In this document: positions 19,798 to 22,810 of the stretch, in pieces
Numbering within the stretch: position 1 is the stretch's first letter
Layout: each line of letters opens with the position of its first letter
Source: Candidatus Rokuibacteriota bacterium
Lineage (GTDB): Bacteria; JAUVQV01
Direction: 5' to 3'
Assembly: GCA_030609125.1 (NCBI GenBank)
Contig: JAUWCW010000001.1
Location: forward strand, 1 to 31,091
Length of the DNA: 31,091 nt
Made by a program: the position numbers and the translations under genes
Notes under the pieces: generated by a model
Database searches by the model: none
What the model was told of the DNA's origin: nothing
The model's input: the letters and a program-made list of their open reading frames with translations, nothing else

Positions 19798-22211
19798 TGG
19801 GAGAAGACCGCCCTTCGGCCATTCCCATCCGGTCTTTCCCTTCCGGAAGGGACCAGACCGTCCAGCGTTACCATGCCTCCCCCTTCAGGCGGGGATGGGT
19901 CAGGTCCATCGCTATCGGTTTCGGCATCTCCCTTCTCACCGTCGGGCTGTTGCGGGCAGAGCTCTTCCGGCAGTTTGAGCTCAGGACCGTCGATGCCCGG
20001 TTCAGGCTGGCCGGAACACGTCCCGTCGAATCTCCTCTGGCCATAGTCTTTATCGGCGACGACAGCATCGAGGAGTTCGGCCGCTGGCCGTGGTCGTGGG
20101 ACCATCACGCCCTGCTCATCGATGTCCTCAACAGGGCGGGGGCGAAGGTCATCCTCTTCGACATCTTCTTCGCCGAGTCGCCCGACAGGGGTCAGGAGCA
20201 GTTCCTCGGCGCCATGGCCGGGGCGGCGGGAAATGTCCATTTCTGTTCTTTTTTCAACGGGTTCTCCCCCTCGGAGGAAGAAAGCGGCCCGCTGTTTCTC
20301 CGGGGGCTGGAACTGACCGGGCCAGTCCCCGGACTGCTCGGCTCCGCTGCCGGCATCGGGCACTGCAACGCCCTGCCCGACAGCGACGGCAATACCCGGA
20401 GAGTGCCTCTCCTCGTGCGTCACGGGGATGAGCTCTTCCCCGCGGCCGCCCTCCGGGTGGCCGGGGACTACCTCGGCTTCTCTATCGATGAAGTCGGTTT
20501 TCCGAGCGAGAGGGCGATTTCGGTCACGACTCGGGAGGGAACTCCCCGGACGATTCCCGTCGACGGCGAAGGCCAGACGATGGTCAACTTCAACGGCGGA
20601 CTGGATGCGTTTCCCGCCTTCTCGTACCGGCAGGTTCTGCAGGCCGACCGCTATCCGGAAAAGGCCCCCATAGATCTGGGGGTCTTCCGCGGCAGGATCG
20701 TCCTCGTCGGCGTGACCTTCACGGGCAACACCGACCTGAGGCCGACCCCTTTCTCTTCGGCCTATCCGATGATCGGCATCCAGGCGACGCTCATCGACAA
20801 CATACTCACCGGTGAGTTCGTCCGCCGCCCCTCCCGGGCAGCGACCCTCGCCGTCTGGCTGCTTCTCGGGGGGCTGGCAGGGGGGCTGGCCTTCTCTTTC
20901 CGGCCGCTGGTAAGCATGATCATTACCCTTCTGGCGGGGTCCGCTTTTCTTGTCGGCACACTCCAGGCCTTCACCGTGTGGCGGGTTCAGCTGGAGCTGG
21001 TCGGTCCCCTGACGGCGGTGGTGCTGACCTACCTGGCGGTGACGACCCTGCAGTACGTCGAGGTGCGGAAGCAGAAGATGCGCTACCTGGAACGGATGAA
21101 ATACCTGGGGCACCTCGTGGAGTCCTCCAGCGAGGCCATCGTCAGCTTCGACGCGTCCAGGGCGGTGGCGAGCTGGAACCACGGGGCCCAGGAGATCTTC
21201 GGCTACAATGAGAAGGAAGTCCGCAATCGGGCGTGGTCCTTCCTCGCCGCTCCCGGAGAGGAGAAGAGTCTCGAAACCCCTCTGCTGCGCACTCTCCAGG
21301 GAGAGGTGGTGGGGCACCAGGAGCTGCGCCTCCTGAGATCAGACGGCGCCGCGATCCCCGTGGCGGCGGCCTTCTCCCCCATACGGGACTCGAAGGGAGC
21401 CCTGGTGGGGATCTCCCTCATCGCCCAGGACCTGAGTGAGAAAAAGAAGATGATCGAGATCCTGGTCCAGTCCGAGAAGCTCGCCGAGATCGGTAGAATG
21501 GGATCCGGGATCGTTCACGAGATAAAGAATCCCCTGACCTCGATCATGATGATGAGCAGCATCCTCACCTCCGACAAAGAGCTGCCGCCGAAGGCGCTCA
21601 AGTACGCCGATATCATCGAGAAAGAGTCGCAGCGCATCCTTCGCCTCAGCAGGAACATTCTCGCCTTTGCCCGACCCCGGACGGCGGAGATGAAGGCGGT
21701 CGATCTCAACGGCATCCTGGAGGAGACGCTGGAGCTCGTTGAGTACGAGCTCAAGAAGGCCAAGGTTCATGTCAACCGGGAGCTTGACGGGAGCATGCCC
21801 CGGGTCCGGGGTGACCGGGAGAAGCTCAAGCAGGTCTTTCTCAACATCATCACCAACGCCTGTCACGCCATGAAGGAGGGGGGCGAGATCTTCGTTCGGA
21901 CCGTCCCTCCGGCGGGGATGGCCGCGCTTCGGGAGAGGGGGCCCGAGGGGTGGCACCGGTGCGAGGAAGGTGAAACCGAGCCCGGGGAGCTGGGGGCGGT
22001 GCAGATCGAGGACCGGGGGTCGGGCATGTCGCCCGACGTTCTGAAGAAGATTTTCGAGCCCTTCTTCTCGACCAAGGCCGAAGGCACGGGCACGGGGCTG
22101 GGCCTTTACATCTCACGGAACATCATCATGGAACACCGCGGAAGAATGGCCGTCCGCAGCCGGGAGGGAGAGGGTACGGTCTTCACCATCTTCCTCCCCC
22201 TCGACCGATGA
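19797..22211 (+). CDS. CHASE2-PAS sensor histidine kinase (NtrB-like transmitter)
   Basis: CHASE2 (GRWPW...GAKVILFDIFF; DSDGNTRRVPL; GRIVLVG; GIQATLIDNIL), 3 TM helices, PAS (SWNHGAQEIFGY), H-box VHEIKNPL, N-box LNIITNACHAM, DRGSGM, FEPFFSTK, GTGLGL; TAATG overlap with the upstream gene. Confidence 0.92.
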   Translation: MGEDRPSAIPIRSFPSGRDQTVQRYHASPFRRGWVRSIAIGFGISLLTVGLLRAELFRQFELRTVDARFRLAGTRPVESPLAIVFIGDDSIEEFGRWPWSWDHHALLIDVLNRAGAKVILFDIFFAESPDRGQEQFLGAMAGAAGNVHFCSFFNGFSPSEEESGPLFLRGLELTGPVPGLLGSAAGIGHCNALPDSDGNTRRVPLLVRHGDELFPAAALRVAGDYLGFSIDEVGFPSERAISVTTREGTPRTIPVDGEGQTMVNFNGGLDAFPAFSYRQVLQADRYPEKAPIDLGVFRGRIVLVGVTFTGNTDLRPTPFSSAYPMIGIQATLIDNILTGEFVRRPSRAATLAVWLLLGGLAGGLAFSFRPLVSMIITLLAGSAFLVGTLQAFTVWRVQLELVGPLTAVVLTYLAVTTLQYVEVRKQKMRYLERMKYLGHLVESSSEAIVSFDASRAVASWNHGAQEIFGYNEKEVRNRAWSFLAAPGEEKSLETPLLRTLQGEVVGHQELRLLRSDGAAIPVAAAFSPIRDSKGALVGISLIAQDLSEKKKMIEILVQSEKLAEIGRMGSGIVHEIKNPLTSIMMMSSILTSDKELPPKALKYADIIEKESQRILRLSRNILAFARPRTAEMKAVDLNGILEETLELVEYELKKAKVHVNRELDGSMPRVRGDREKLKQVFLNIITNACHAMKEGGEIFVRTVPPAGMAALRERGPEGWHRCEEGETEPGELGAVQIEDRGSGMSPDVLKKIFEPFFSTKAEGTGTGLGLYISRNIIMEHRGRMAVRSREGEGTVFTIFLPLDR

Positions 22212-22810
22212 AGGGCGGCGACAGGAGCAGGGAGCTCTACCGCTATCTGGAGGCCTGCCAGAGAAGGGAGGGGCGCTTCCCCTCGTACCGGGAGATCGCC
22301 GCCGCTCTCGGATGGAAATCGACGAACACCGTTTCCTACCACATCGCAAGGATGATGCGGGAGGGCCTTCTGGAAAAGGACCCCGGCAAGGTACGGAGCT
22401 TCCGTCTCCGGCGCTACCGCAGGAGCCGGTATCTCAAGAGGCAGGCGCAGGAGCTGGAGATTCGCCCCACGTTCGGGAAGGAGGGCTCCCCGAACAGGAA
22501 CCTGTGGATTGACCGAGGGTGGTTCGGGGGGGAGAAGCTGTCGGTGTGGGAGCTGTCGGGCGATGCCCCGTTGCCCGAGGGGCTGAAGAGCGGAGACTGC
22601 GTTCTGGTGGACTCCGCCGCCGAGCCGGCAGTGGGTGACCTCGTTCTCGCCTCCGCCGGCGGGGAGACACTGGCAGGCCGCATCTTTTATGAAGGCGAGA
22701 GCTGGCGCCTGCTGGTTTCGGAGGAGCCGGAAGAGATCCTCATCCTGGGAGAGGGGAGTCTTGCGGGAGAGATACTGGGACGCGTGGTCGGCCTGCTCCG
22801 GCGCTTCTGA
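22208..22810 (+). CDS. LexA-like repressor, catalytically degenerate S24 domain
   Basis: LexA winged-HTH (FPSYREIAAALGWKSTNTVSYHI...GLL...RSFRL) and LexA-like C-terminus (GDCVLV...GDLVLA...ILGRVVGLLR), but GDAP for GDSM, ETLAGR for EATxKR, and no Ala-Gly site. Confidence 0.8.
   Translation: MKGGDRSRELYRYLEACQRREGRFPSYREIAAALGWKSTNTVSYHIARMMREGLLEKDPGKVRSFRLRRYRRSRYLKRQAQELEIRPTFGKEGSPNRNLWIDRGWFGGEKLSVWELSGDAPLPEGLKSGDCVLVDSAAEPAVGDLVLASAGGETLAGRIFYEGESWRLLVSEEPEEILILGEGSLAGEILGRVVGLLRRF

What the first reader, a model, noticed from the sequence alone, without database searches (positions are those of the whole stretch)
22208..22810. LexA paralog that has lost the cleavage site and both catalytic residues
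Seen in sequence: the N-terminal DNA-binding domain is intact and LexA-like. The nucleophile motif reads G118-D119-A120-P121 instead of GDSM, the general-base strand reads E153-T-L-A156-G157-R with no Lys, and the linker (RRYRRSRYLKRQAQELEIRPTFGKEGSP) has no Ala-Gly bond. Established: LexA induction needs the Ser-Lys dyad (E. coli S119/K156) and the Ala-Gly site. Inference: three independent losses in an uninterrupted ORF that retains the dimerisation-fold C-terminus point to a repurposed, SOS-blind repressor rather than random decay. It could be regulated by the adjacent kinase or a ligand, or act as a dominant-negative partner of a canonical LexA.
Basis: partly seen in the sequence, partly recalled or inferred. 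Interest (0 to 1): 0.8.

Follow-up and report, generated by a model that had tools for sequence, protein, structure and literature searches.

The report
Non-cleaving LexA paralog coupled to kinase
This gene encodes a conserved second copy of the DNA-damage repressor LexA that has lost everything it needs to cut itself and is read off the tail of a membrane sensor-kinase gene in a small group of marine-sediment bacteria; it is probably a damage-independent gene regulator, and similar 'dead' LexA copies are already known elsewhere.

Summary
Sequence alignments to solved LexAs put Ala120 at the nucleophile Ser and Gly157 at the general-base Lys, and the cleavage-site strand has no Ala-Gly.

It is not decay. 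Fourteen metagenomic orthologs (50-95% identity) share the losses, dN/dS is about 0.23, and an AlphaFold model matches LexA structures. The same genome has a canonical lexA with a perfect TACTGT-N8-ACAGTA box and a dinB neighbour. No such box lies in the window.

In five of six orthologous loci read at the junction, the gene start overlaps the stop of a CHASE2-PAS histidine kinase, and comF follows where downstream DNA was assembled. An outgroup genome has a very diverged LexA-like gene in the same slot. One sister-family genome has kinase and comF joined directly.

The most likely reading is an SOS-blind dimeric DNA-binding regulator co-expressed with the kinase module. Its targets and input are unknown. 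No operator was found, and the kinase-binding fold test gave no verdict.

Non-cleavable LexA is published for Synechocystis. About 20 of about 140 nearest LexA-like clusters also lack the dyad, and this scan has reported other dead-LexA families on other DNA. I score it a new variant of a known kind, of moderate interest.

The parts
22208..22810 (+). LexA-like paralog gene, 200 aa plus TGA stop (protein P0001)
   Evidence: ORF and translation; Pfam PF01726 and PF00717; 14 orthologs; dN/dS 0.23
22220..22396 (+). N-terminal LexA-type winged helix-turn-helix, residues 5-63; the recognition-helix region GWKSTNTV is nearly invariant in the family
   Evidence: PF01726 E 1.3e-10; invariant columns; dN/dS 0.18; helices H2-21, H27-34, H39-51 in the model
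22415..22435 (+). Basic linker motif Y70-R71-R72-S73-R74-Y75-L76, which replaces the neutral/acidic LexA hinge. Y70, R71, R72 and R74 are invariant and S73 nearly so. It is disordered in the model.
   Evidence: Alignments A1/A2; pLDDT below 50 for residues 70-77; an 'RRS' motif is also present in outgroup P0170
22445..22468 (+). Former cleavage-site strand, residues 80-87 (QELEIRPT). It aligns with the canonical ..V-A-A-G.. segment but has no Ala-Gly.
   Evidence: Alignment A1; beta strand E80-87 in the model
22499..22807 (+). S24-peptidase-like beta domain without catalytic residues, residues 98-200. The C-terminal strand GRVVGLLRR is shared with canonical LexAs.
   Evidence: PF00717 26.7 bits; Foldseek target-normalised TM 0.65-0.83 to LexA, UmuD' and lambda cI C-terminal domains; pLDDT about 88-92
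22565..22567 (+). Codon for Ala120, at the position of the nucleophile Ser (E. coli S119)
   Evidence: phmmer alignments to 1JHH, 3K2Z and 8S7G; MAFFT alignment; the column is A/T/M/G across orthologs
22676..22678 (+). Codon for Gly157, at the position of the general-base Lys (E. coli K156); Gly in all 14 orthologs and in the outgroup subfamily
22208..22211 (+). ATGA overlap: the paralog's start codon overlaps the kinase stop codon (translational coupling)
   Evidence: Sequence; the overlap is kept in 5 of 6 orthologous loci
19797..22211 (+). Upstream partner gene: CHASE2-PAS-HisKA-HATPase_c sensor histidine kinase, 804 aa
   Evidence: Pfam; conserved synteny
22820..23575 (+). Downstream gene: ComF-like double-zinc-ribbon phosphoribosyltransferase, 251 aa, 9 nt after the paralog's stop
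   Evidence: Pfam PF18912 and PF00156; sequence; synteny
15722..19797 (+). First two genes of the same-strand cluster: Reg_prop beta-propeller/TPR protein (15722-19339) and a DUF7354-like 153-aa protein (19336-19797)
   Evidence: Pfam; synteny in L008, L010, L013, L016, L032, and in G004 and G005
15479..15721 (.). AT-rich divergent promoter region upstream of the cluster. It holds a minus-strand TTGACA-N17-TATTAT promoter (15593-15565) and a conserved plus-strand block (15678-15718). No conserved palindrome was found.

Best explanation
The gene encodes a LexA-fold transcription factor that can no longer cleave itself. Shown by tools: it keeps the LexA winged-helix domain and the S24-type beta domain. 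It lacks the Ala-Gly bond, the Ser nucleophile and the Lys base, as do all its orthologs. It is under purifying selection. It sits between a CHASE2-PAS histidine kinase and comF, with its start codon overlapping the kinase stop. The genome has a separate canonical lexA-dinB SOS locus. Inferred: the protein dimerises through the retained C-terminal domain and binds a palindromic operator different from the SOS box. The invariant basic linker (YRRSRY) probably adds DNA contacts. Because it cannot be removed by RecA*-stimulated autocleavage, DNA damage does not affect it. Its amount is tied to the kinase by translational coupling. It therefore most likely acts as a stable repressor or autoregulator belonging to the Reg_prop/TPR-DUF7354-CHASE2 kinase-comF sensory cluster. 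Its activity would be set by expression level, or by an unidentified modification or ligand, not by cleavage.
For: Domains: PF01726 E 1.3e-10 and PF00717 26.7 bits against a 23.3 cut-off. Residue equivalences A120 to Ser and G157 to Lys come from two independent alignment methods. Model: pLDDT 81, with LexA structures as the top Foldseek hits at E 1e-10 and target-normalised TM 0.65-0.83 for the C-terminal domain. Family: 14 orthologs at 50-95% identity with Gly at the Lys column in all, no Ser at the nucleophile column in any, and none with a canonical Ala-Gly. Selection: NG86 dN/dS is 0.23 overall, 0.18 in the N-terminal domain, 0.25 in the C-terminal domain and 0.13-0.14 for close pairs. 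Isolation: only two 50%-identity clusters among 1.84 billion representatives, with scores dropping from 331 to 91 bits; monophyletic at 0.995 on the longest internal branch. Canonical system elsewhere: lexA at 188 bits with VPAG, GESM and TVKR, followed by an IMS-family polymerase gene. Its promoter carries the genome's only TACTGT-N8-ACAGTA box, and no box lies in the window. Coupling: the kinase precedes the gene in every locus with enough upstream sequence, and comF follows where downstream DNA was assembled. Shorter contigs show an unidentified upstream gene overlapping the start. The start/stop overlap is kept in 5 of 6 loci. Outgroup genome G005 has a diverged LexA-like gene (P0170; hhalign probability 96.4% against the family) in the same kinase-X-comF slot, plus its own canonical lexA. 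Precedent: Synechocystis LexA lacks Ala-Gly and Ser, does not autocleave and works as a general repressor (PMC7567884).
Against: DNA binding, dimerisation and repression are all inferred. No conserved palindrome was found in the promoter regions of the cluster across four loci, and the conserved upstream blocks do not recur in the genome. So neither an operator nor a regulon is defined. One sister-family genome (G004) has the kinase coupled directly to comF without the paralog, and no copy was found in the four sister-family genomes (78-99% complete). The sensory module can therefore work without it. The complex prediction of the kinase DHp-CA dimer with the paralog dimer gave no verdict. Grouping of the outgroup subfamily with this family has negligible tree support (0.125), and P0170 scores higher against a broad canonical LexA profile (60 bits) than against the narrow family profile (33 bits). 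Expression evidence is only one 229-nt contig in RNA-labelled runs.
Confidence: 0.68

Rival explanations
1. The paralog is a direct, receiver-less partner of the CHASE2 kinase. The kinase would bind, sequester or modify it (for example at the conserved linker Ser73), so that it serves as the module's transcriptional output in place of a response regulator.
For: The start/stop overlap with the kinase is conserved down to about 56% identity, and an overlap is also seen in the outgroup. No receiver domain lies on this 31-kb contig, although the genome has 47 elsewhere. The basic RRS-containing linker is invariant. Synechocystis LexA is reported to be phospho-modified.
Against: HisKA kinases transfer phosphate to Asp in receiver domains, and this protein has none. 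With 47 receivers against 29 HisKA matches in the genome, an orphan partner elsewhere is easy to imagine. Sister-family genome G004 runs the same kinase-comF module without the paralog. There is no evidence of contact.
Confidence: 0.1
2. The dead S24 domain has become a small-molecule or peptide sensor. A ligand bound in the former substrate cleft would change DNA affinity, as in classical one-component regulators.
For: Family-specific invariant residues cluster in the strands around the former active site (W100, W105, W114, E115, D135, D144). The former Ser loop and Lys strand are relaxed but still constrained, with dN/dS 0.39-0.48.
Against: The former Ser loop varies in sequence, and the outgroup subfamily has shortened it, which does not fit a conserved binding site. 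No metabolic gene in the cluster suggests a ligand, apart from the PRTase-like ComF.
Confidence: 0.12
3. It forms heterodimers with the canonical LexA, or competes for SOS boxes, and so damps or buffers the SOS response in a way that cleavage cannot relieve.
For: The C-terminal strand GRVVGLLRR is shared with canonical LexAs (own LexA: GKVIGVIRRL). Ser38 and Asn40 of the recognition helix match LexA's DNA-contacting Ser and Asn; that comparison rests on my own recollection of the 3JSO contacts.
Against: Identity to the genome's own LexA is only 24%. Other recognition-helix positions differ, and position 44 varies within the family. The cluster has no SOS box. Four genomes of the sister family keep canonical lexA but lack the paralog. 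The conserved linkage is to a membrane sensor module, not to repair genes.
Confidence: 0.05
4. It is still switched off by proteolysis, either through unrecognised catalytic residues or through a separate protease that cuts in the exposed basic linker.
For: The linker (residues 70-77 and 91-94) is predicted to be disordered and is rich in Arg, which is a plausible protease site. The first gene of the cluster has weak, sub-threshold transglutaminase-core-like matches in the G004 ortholog.
Against: The C-terminal domain has no invariant Ser, Thr, Cys or Lys. Ser117 is not conserved.
Confidence: 0.04
5. It is a decaying lexA duplicate with no function.
For: All three catalytic features are lost. 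The TIGR00498 score is 56.9 against a cut-off of 110.95.
Against: The frame is intact in 14 orthologs and 3 outgroup homologs. dN/dS is 0.13-0.25. There are 49 invariant columns. The fold is modelled confidently. The genomic position is conserved.
Confidence: 0.01

Closest known systems
Canonical SOS repressor LexA (E. coli LexA, PDB 1JHH/3JSO; T. maritima 3K2Z; NCBIfam TIGR00498)
   Same: Same two-domain architecture and fold: an N-terminal LexA winged helix and a C-terminal S24 beta domain with a conserved C-terminal strand. Similar length, about 200 aa.
   Different: It has no Ala-Gly bond, no Ser nucleophile and no Lys base. It scores 56.9 against a 110.95-bit cut-off. A basic YRRSRY linker replaces the hinge. 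There is no SOS box at its locus. It is operon-coupled to a sensor kinase rather than autoregulated next to repair genes. A true LexA coexists in the genome.
Synechocystis sp. PCC 6803 LexA (Sll1626), a naturally non-cleavable LexA
   Same: A LexA-fold regulator that lacks the Ala-Gly site and the catalytic Ser, does not autocleave, and regulates non-SOS genes. Post-translational modification has been proposed as its input (PMC7567884, PMC13416735).
   Different: The papers read here describe no second, canonical lexA in Synechocystis, and they report loss of Ala-Gly and Ser but not of Lys. Here the protein is a paralog beside a canonical LexA, has lost Lys as well, belongs to an unrelated and sharply isolated family, and is translationally coupled to a histidine kinase.
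LexA paralog pairs such as Leptospira interrogans LexA1/LexA2
   Same: Two lexA-type genes in one genome. The second is highly divergent (28% identity) (PMC3789691).
   Different: Leptospira LexA2 keeps Ser130, Lys166 and a Cys-Gly scissile bond and takes part in the SOS response. The paralog here has none of these.
SOS-independent LexA-like regulators IrvR (S. mutans) and HdiR (L. lactis)
   Same: S24-family transcription factors recruited to roles other than the SOS response (PMC7101444).
   Different: IrvR still depends on its Ser-Lys dyad and Ala-Gly site for constitutive autocleavage. Here the chemistry itself is gone.
Other dyad-less LexA-like families
   Same: Independent losses of Ser and/or Lys in otherwise intact LexA-like proteins. 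About 20 of about 140 nearest cluster representatives show this.
   Different: Their genomic contexts are unrelated (spoIIIA neighbourhood, a DUF896-adjacent locus, cysS/mini-RNase III). None is next to a kinase. None groups with this family with meaningful support; the nearest, P0066, comes out as sister at 0.85, probably by long-branch attraction.

Membership tests
LexA SOS repressor (TIGR00498 equivalog) | Whole-protein HMM score over the curated cut-off (110.95 bits) | tested here: not met
   56.9 bits. The genome's canonical LexA scores 188.1 bits.
LexA SOS repressor (TIGR00498 equivalog) | N-terminal LexA-type winged helix-turn-helix | tested here: met
   PF01726 at E 1.3e-10, 41.4 bits against a 23.7 cut-off, residues 5-63. 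Foldseek hit to 1LEA with target-normalised TM 0.75.
LexA SOS repressor (TIGR00498 equivalog) | Ala-Gly (or Cys-Gly) scissile bond in the cleavage-site region | tested here: not met
   Canonical V-A-A-G aligns with E-I-R 84-86, and the linker 68-95 has no A-G.
LexA SOS repressor (TIGR00498 equivalog) | Ser nucleophile (E. coli S119) in G-x-S-M | tested here: not met
   Ala120; the column is A/T/M/G in the 14 orthologs.
LexA SOS repressor (TIGR00498 equivalog) | Lys general base (E. coli K156) in T-V-K-R | tested here: not met
   Gly157, invariant in the 14 orthologs and in the outgroup subfamily.
LexA SOS repressor (TIGR00498 equivalog) | SOS box at its own promoter (autoregulation) | tested here: not met
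   The genome's TACTGT-N8-ACAGTA box occurs only at the canonical lexA. The window has no CTGT-N8-ACAG.
LexA SOS repressor (TIGR00498 equivalog) | RecA*-stimulated or alkaline autocleavage | not testable with these tools
   Needs an in-vitro assay. It is predicted to be absent from the missing residues.
Peptidase S24 / LexA-like superfamily (PF00717 fold) | S24 beta-barrel fold | tested here: met
   PF00717 at 26.7 bits against 23.3. Foldseek target-normalised TM 0.65-0.83 to LexA, UmuD' and lambda cI C-terminal domains.
Peptidase S24 / LexA-like superfamily (PF00717 fold) | Ser-Lys catalytic dyad (enzyme activity) | tested here: not met
   It is a member by fold only, that is, a pseudo-peptidase.
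Naturally non-cleavable LexA-type regulators (Synechocystis LexA type) | LexA fold with loss of the cleavage site and the nucleophile | tested here: met
   The precedent is in PMC7567884.
Naturally non-cleavable LexA-type regulators (Synechocystis LexA type) | Common descent with the cyanobacterial non-cleavable clade | not tested
   No cyanobacterial sequence was put in the tree. The family's isolation makes an independent origin likely: the score gap is 331 to 91 bits, and it sits on the longest internal branch.
Two-component response regulator | Receiver (REC, PF00072) domain with a phospho-acceptor Asp | tested here: not met
   No PF00072 hit in P0001. No receiver on contig C30 among the genome's 47.

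The most novel reading that the evidence does not exclude
The dead-protease LexA paralog is the dedicated, receiver-less transcriptional output of the CHASE2-PAS histidine kinase. It would be made in fixed ratio with the kinase by translational coupling and switched by the kinase through binding or through modification of the invariant basic RRS linker. That would be a new way of wiring a histidine kinase to DNA without a response regulator.
Probability: 0.1. Interest if true: 0.8.

Novelty: new variant of a known kind. Interest (0 to 1): 0.42.

Why it matters
Automatic annotation names these proteins 'repressor LexA'. That would wrongly suggest a second SOS switch. This protein cannot respond to RecA by the LexA mechanism.

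It adds a clean case of paralogy: a canonical LexA with its SOS box and dinB is kept alongside. This supports the growing picture that the LexA/S24 scaffold is repeatedly turned into an ordinary, non-proteolytic transcription factor. It does so in a very thinly sampled marine-sediment phylum, with only six species genomes in the library.

The conserved translational coupling to a CHASE2 sensor kinase gives a concrete, testable handle on two open questions: what non-cleavable LexAs respond to, and what CHASE2 modules control. If the kinase acts on the paralog directly, that would be a new kind of signalling link. If not, it is one more lineage-specific regulator.

Tried and rejected
1. Kinase contact. 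A complex prediction used the kinase DHp-CA (residues 555-804, two copies) and the paralog (two copies), each with my own shallow alignment. The score was 0.00, meaning no support and no evidence against. It is not used either way.

2. Operator search. I enumerated perfect inverted repeats (5-8-nt arms, 0-14-nt spacers) shared by at least 3 of 4 or 4 of 5 orthologous loci, in the promoter region and the comF-gap spacer. None was found. The repeat finder showed only a 10-nt pair that a minus-strand sigma-70 promoter explains. nhmmer profiles of the two conserved upstream blocks hit only themselves in the genome.

3. The scan of species-representative genomes by peptide patterns returned only N-terminal matches in other phyla, probably canonical LexAs.

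4. Expression. Two RNA-labelled metagenome runs contain one 229-nt contig inside the gene (22495-22723, 1 mismatch) but nothing across the kinase junction. DNA carry-over cannot be excluded, so co-transcription is not shown.

5. Common origin of the outgroup subfamily. The tree puts it with the family, but support is 0.125. HMM scores favour a broad canonical profile (60 bits) over the family profile (33 bits). Homology of position rests on gene order and shared derived residues.

6. Alternative catalytic residues (Ser117, K110, K127) are rejected because they are not conserved.

7. Literature search for a LexA-like regulator linked to CHASE2 or a histidine kinase found nothing relevant.

8. 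Organism names could not be obtained.

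
Full report
**1. The observation**

window:22208-22810(+) is an uninterrupted 200-codon ORF. Its ATG overlaps the TGA of the upstream gene (ATGA, 22208-22211). Its own stop lies 9 nt before the next start. Pfam finds LexA_DNA_bind (E 1.3e-10, residues 5-63) and Peptidase_S24 just above threshold (26.7 against 23.3 bits, residues 96-174). The curated LexA equivalog model scores only 56.9 bits against a cut-off of 110.95.

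phmmer alignments to solved LexA structures put Ala120 opposite the nucleophile Ser. In the E. coli S119A entry 1JHH the two Ala residues align directly. The same alignments put Gly157 opposite Lys156. The only adjustment is that G157, not A156, is the position equivalent to the Lys.

**2. A real family, not decay**

A word-indexed search of 5.8 billion proteins found 14 orthologs at 50-95% identity; the next hits were canonical LexAs at 33% or less. In all 14 the Lys column is Gly. The Ser column is A, T, M or G. No canonical Ala-Gly is present.

Codon alignments of ten orthologs give NG86 dN/dS of 0.23 overall: 0.18 in the N-terminal domain, 0.25 in the C-terminal domain and 0.13-0.14 for close pairs. 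The former Ser loop and Lys strand are relaxed (0.39-0.48) but not neutral.

AlphaFold2 with the family alignment gives mean pLDDT 81, about 90 in the C-terminal domain and below 50 only in linker segments 70-77 and 91-94. Foldseek returns full-length LexA structures first (3K2Z, 3JSP, 1JHH at E about 1e-10). LexA, UmuD' and lambda cI C-terminal domains follow at target-normalised TM 0.65-0.83.

**3. How isolated the family is**

An exhaustive profile search of 1.84 billion cluster representatives found only two clusters belonging to the family (331 and 226 bits). Scores then drop to 91 bits. In a tree with about 135 other LexA-like proteins the family is monophyletic (0.995). It sits on the longest internal branch, 1.56 substitutions per site, about ten times the median. 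The genome's canonical LexA groups with those of its order-mates (0.97). So this is not a recent duplicate.

Among species-representative genomes, the window's phylum has only six members, and only the window's genome carries this subfamily. Reads matching the locus come from marine sediment and cold-seep metagenomes.

**4. The canonical SOS system is present separately**

Contig C324 carries a lexA that scores 188 bits, with VPAG, GESM and TVKR intact. An IMS-family (DinB-type) polymerase gene follows it. Its promoter contains TACTGT-AATTATTT-ACAGTA between a TTGACT and a TATATT hexamer. This is the only ACTGT-N8-ACAGT site in the 2.3-Mb assembly. The window has no CTGT-N8-ACAG at all. The paralog's cluster is therefore not visibly under SOS control. 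recA was not detected, but the genome is only 92% complete.

**5. Genomic context**

- Gene order. The order in the loci read is Reg_prop/TPR protein (about 1200 aa), a DUF7354-like protein (153 aa), the CHASE2-PAS-HisKA-HATPase_c kinase (about 800 aa), the LexA-like gene, the ComF-like PRTase, then gap-pgk-tpi-secG behind their own conserved promoter (TTGACA-N18-TACCAT, 23601-23630). The kinase precedes the LexA-like gene in every locus with enough upstream sequence. comF and gap follow wherever the contig reaches that far.
- Junction. The LexA-like start overlaps the kinase stop in five of six loci. The exception, L008, has a roughly 155-nt AT-rich insertion exactly at the junction.
- Receivers. 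No receiver domain lies on the contig, although the genome has 47 receiver and 29 HisKA matches.

**6. Depth of the association**

In the one sister-family genome with sequence downstream of the kinase (G004), the orthologous cluster runs Reg_prop/TPR, DUF7354, kinase, comF, gap. comF overlaps the kinase stop, and there is no LexA-like gene. The sister-family genomes have canonical lexA only.

In the outgroup genome of the same class (G005), the slot between the kinase and comF holds a 213-aa gene, P0170. Its start again overlaps the kinase end. P0170 matches LexA_DNA_bind (E 4.5e-7) but no longer matches PF00717. It aligns with the family profile over both domains (hhalign probability 96.4%, E 1.4e-9, 30% identity). 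It shares Gly at the Lys position, the absence of Ser and an RRS linker motif, and has two close relatives. G005 also has a canonical lexA.

The most economical history is one old insertion of a LexA-derived gene into the kinase-comF junction, followed by loss in the sister family. This rests on position and shared derived characters. Tree support for uniting the two subfamilies is negligible, and P0170 scores higher against a broad canonical profile.

**7. Mechanism**

Shown:
- LexA fold
- no catalytic apparatus
- purifying selection, strongest on the DNA-binding domain
- fixed position behind a sensor kinase
- a separate canonical SOS system

Inferred:
- The protein is a dimeric DNA-binding regulator that RecA* cannot inactivate.
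- It is made in step with the kinase.
- It recognises an operator other than the SOS box, because several recognition-helix positions differ from LexA and position 44 varies within the family.
- It uses the invariant basic linker as an extra DNA-contacting arm or as a modification site.

I could not define an operator, and the fold test for kinase contact gave no verdict. G004 dispenses with the gene. It is therefore more likely an accessory regulator of, or alongside, the module than its essential output.

**8. Comparison with what is known**

Synechocystis LexA lacks the Ala-Gly site and the catalytic Ser, is not cleaved, and acts as a general repressor that may be tuned by phosphorylation (PMC7567884, PMC13416735). 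Leptospira LexA2 and S. mutans IrvR are divergent or SOS-independent LexA-like proteins that keep the dyad (PMC3789691, PMC7101444).

In my own data about 20 of about 140 nearest LexA-like cluster representatives also lack Ser and/or Lys, in unrelated contexts. Earlier notes of this scan describe further dead-LexA families on other DNA. The general phenomenon is therefore known and recurrent.

Four things are particular here. The paralog coexists with a complete canonical system. All three features are lost. The linker has been remodelled into a basic motif. The translational coupling to a CHASE2 kinase is conserved and possibly ancient. I found no publication linking a LexA-like protein to a CHASE2 or histidine-kinase gene.

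**9. Verdict**

I rate it a new variant of a known kind, with moderate interest (0.42). The most novel reading still open is that the kinase acts directly on this receiver-less regulator. I put that at about 10%.

Noticed in passing
L008:7868-8024 (ortholog locus; corresponds to window 22211/22212): A roughly 155-nt AT-rich insertion sits exactly at the ATGA junction between the kinase and the LexA-like gene in one strain. It uncouples the two genes, and the gene caller gave the paralog an N-terminal extension. It could be a small mobile element or a new promoter.
   Followed up: partly
L052 (G004:C95) 657-4012, minus strand: In one sister-family genome the ComF-like gene itself overlaps the CHASE2 kinase stop by 4 nt. 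The link between kinase and comF is therefore conserved across the phylum, with or without the LexA-like gene. The functional tie between a CHASE2 kinase and a ComF-type PRTase is unexplained.
   Followed up: partly
L001:2130-2175 (G000:C324:5342-5359): The canonical lexA of this candidate-phylum genome has a perfect E. coli-type SOS box, TACTGTAATTATTTACAGTA, between the -35 and -10 hexamers. It is the only strict box in the 2.3-Mb assembly. Only one other AT-rich-spacer CTGT-N8-ACAG exists (C236:16356), which suggests a very small SOS regulon.
   Followed up: partly
G000, whole genome: No RecA (PF00154) match was found in the 92%-complete assembly, although lexA and dinB are present. This is probably an assembly gap, but it is worth checking.
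   Followed up: no
L055 (G005:C3) about 6364-8700, minus strand: The orthologous CHASE2 kinase in the outgroup genome is split into at least three frames, with one in-frame TGA. It is either a pseudogene or carries indel errors from an assembly of only 10 contigs. The LexA-like gene and comF downstream are intact.
   Followed up: no
window 22495-22723: The same 229-nt contig (1 mismatch, T to C at 22687) appears in two RNA-labelled marine-sediment runs and covers only the C-terminal half of the LexA-like gene. The neighbouring kinase and comF have next to no coverage. It may be expression or DNA carry-over.
   Followed up: partly
window 23601-23630: The gap-pgk-tpi-secG operon has its own strongly conserved promoter, TTGACA-N18-TACCAT with an upstream TG. 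It is identical or nearly so in five orthologous loci, and it marks the downstream end of the sensory cluster.
   Followed up: yes
L038/L039 6001-6621 (P0102) and L037 1873-2457 (P0022): Two other dyad-less LexA-like proteins turned up. P0102 (Thr/Gly at the Ser and Lys columns) lies next to DUF896 and UPF0154 genes. P0022 (Ala/Arg) lies next to a phage-type integrase and the spoIIIA operon. Both appear to be independent losses of self-cleavage.
   Followed up: partly
G003:C13:328970-329536 and G003:C17:27621-28187: One sister-family genome has two equally scoring canonical lexA copies on different contigs. This is either a duplication or assembly redundancy.
   Followed up: no
G000:C297:6303-7499 (L054): The window's genome has a second CHASE2-domain gene whose sensor part is 53% identical to that of the kinase but which lacks the matching kinase half. 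It is a paralogous sensor of unknown output.
   Followed up: no
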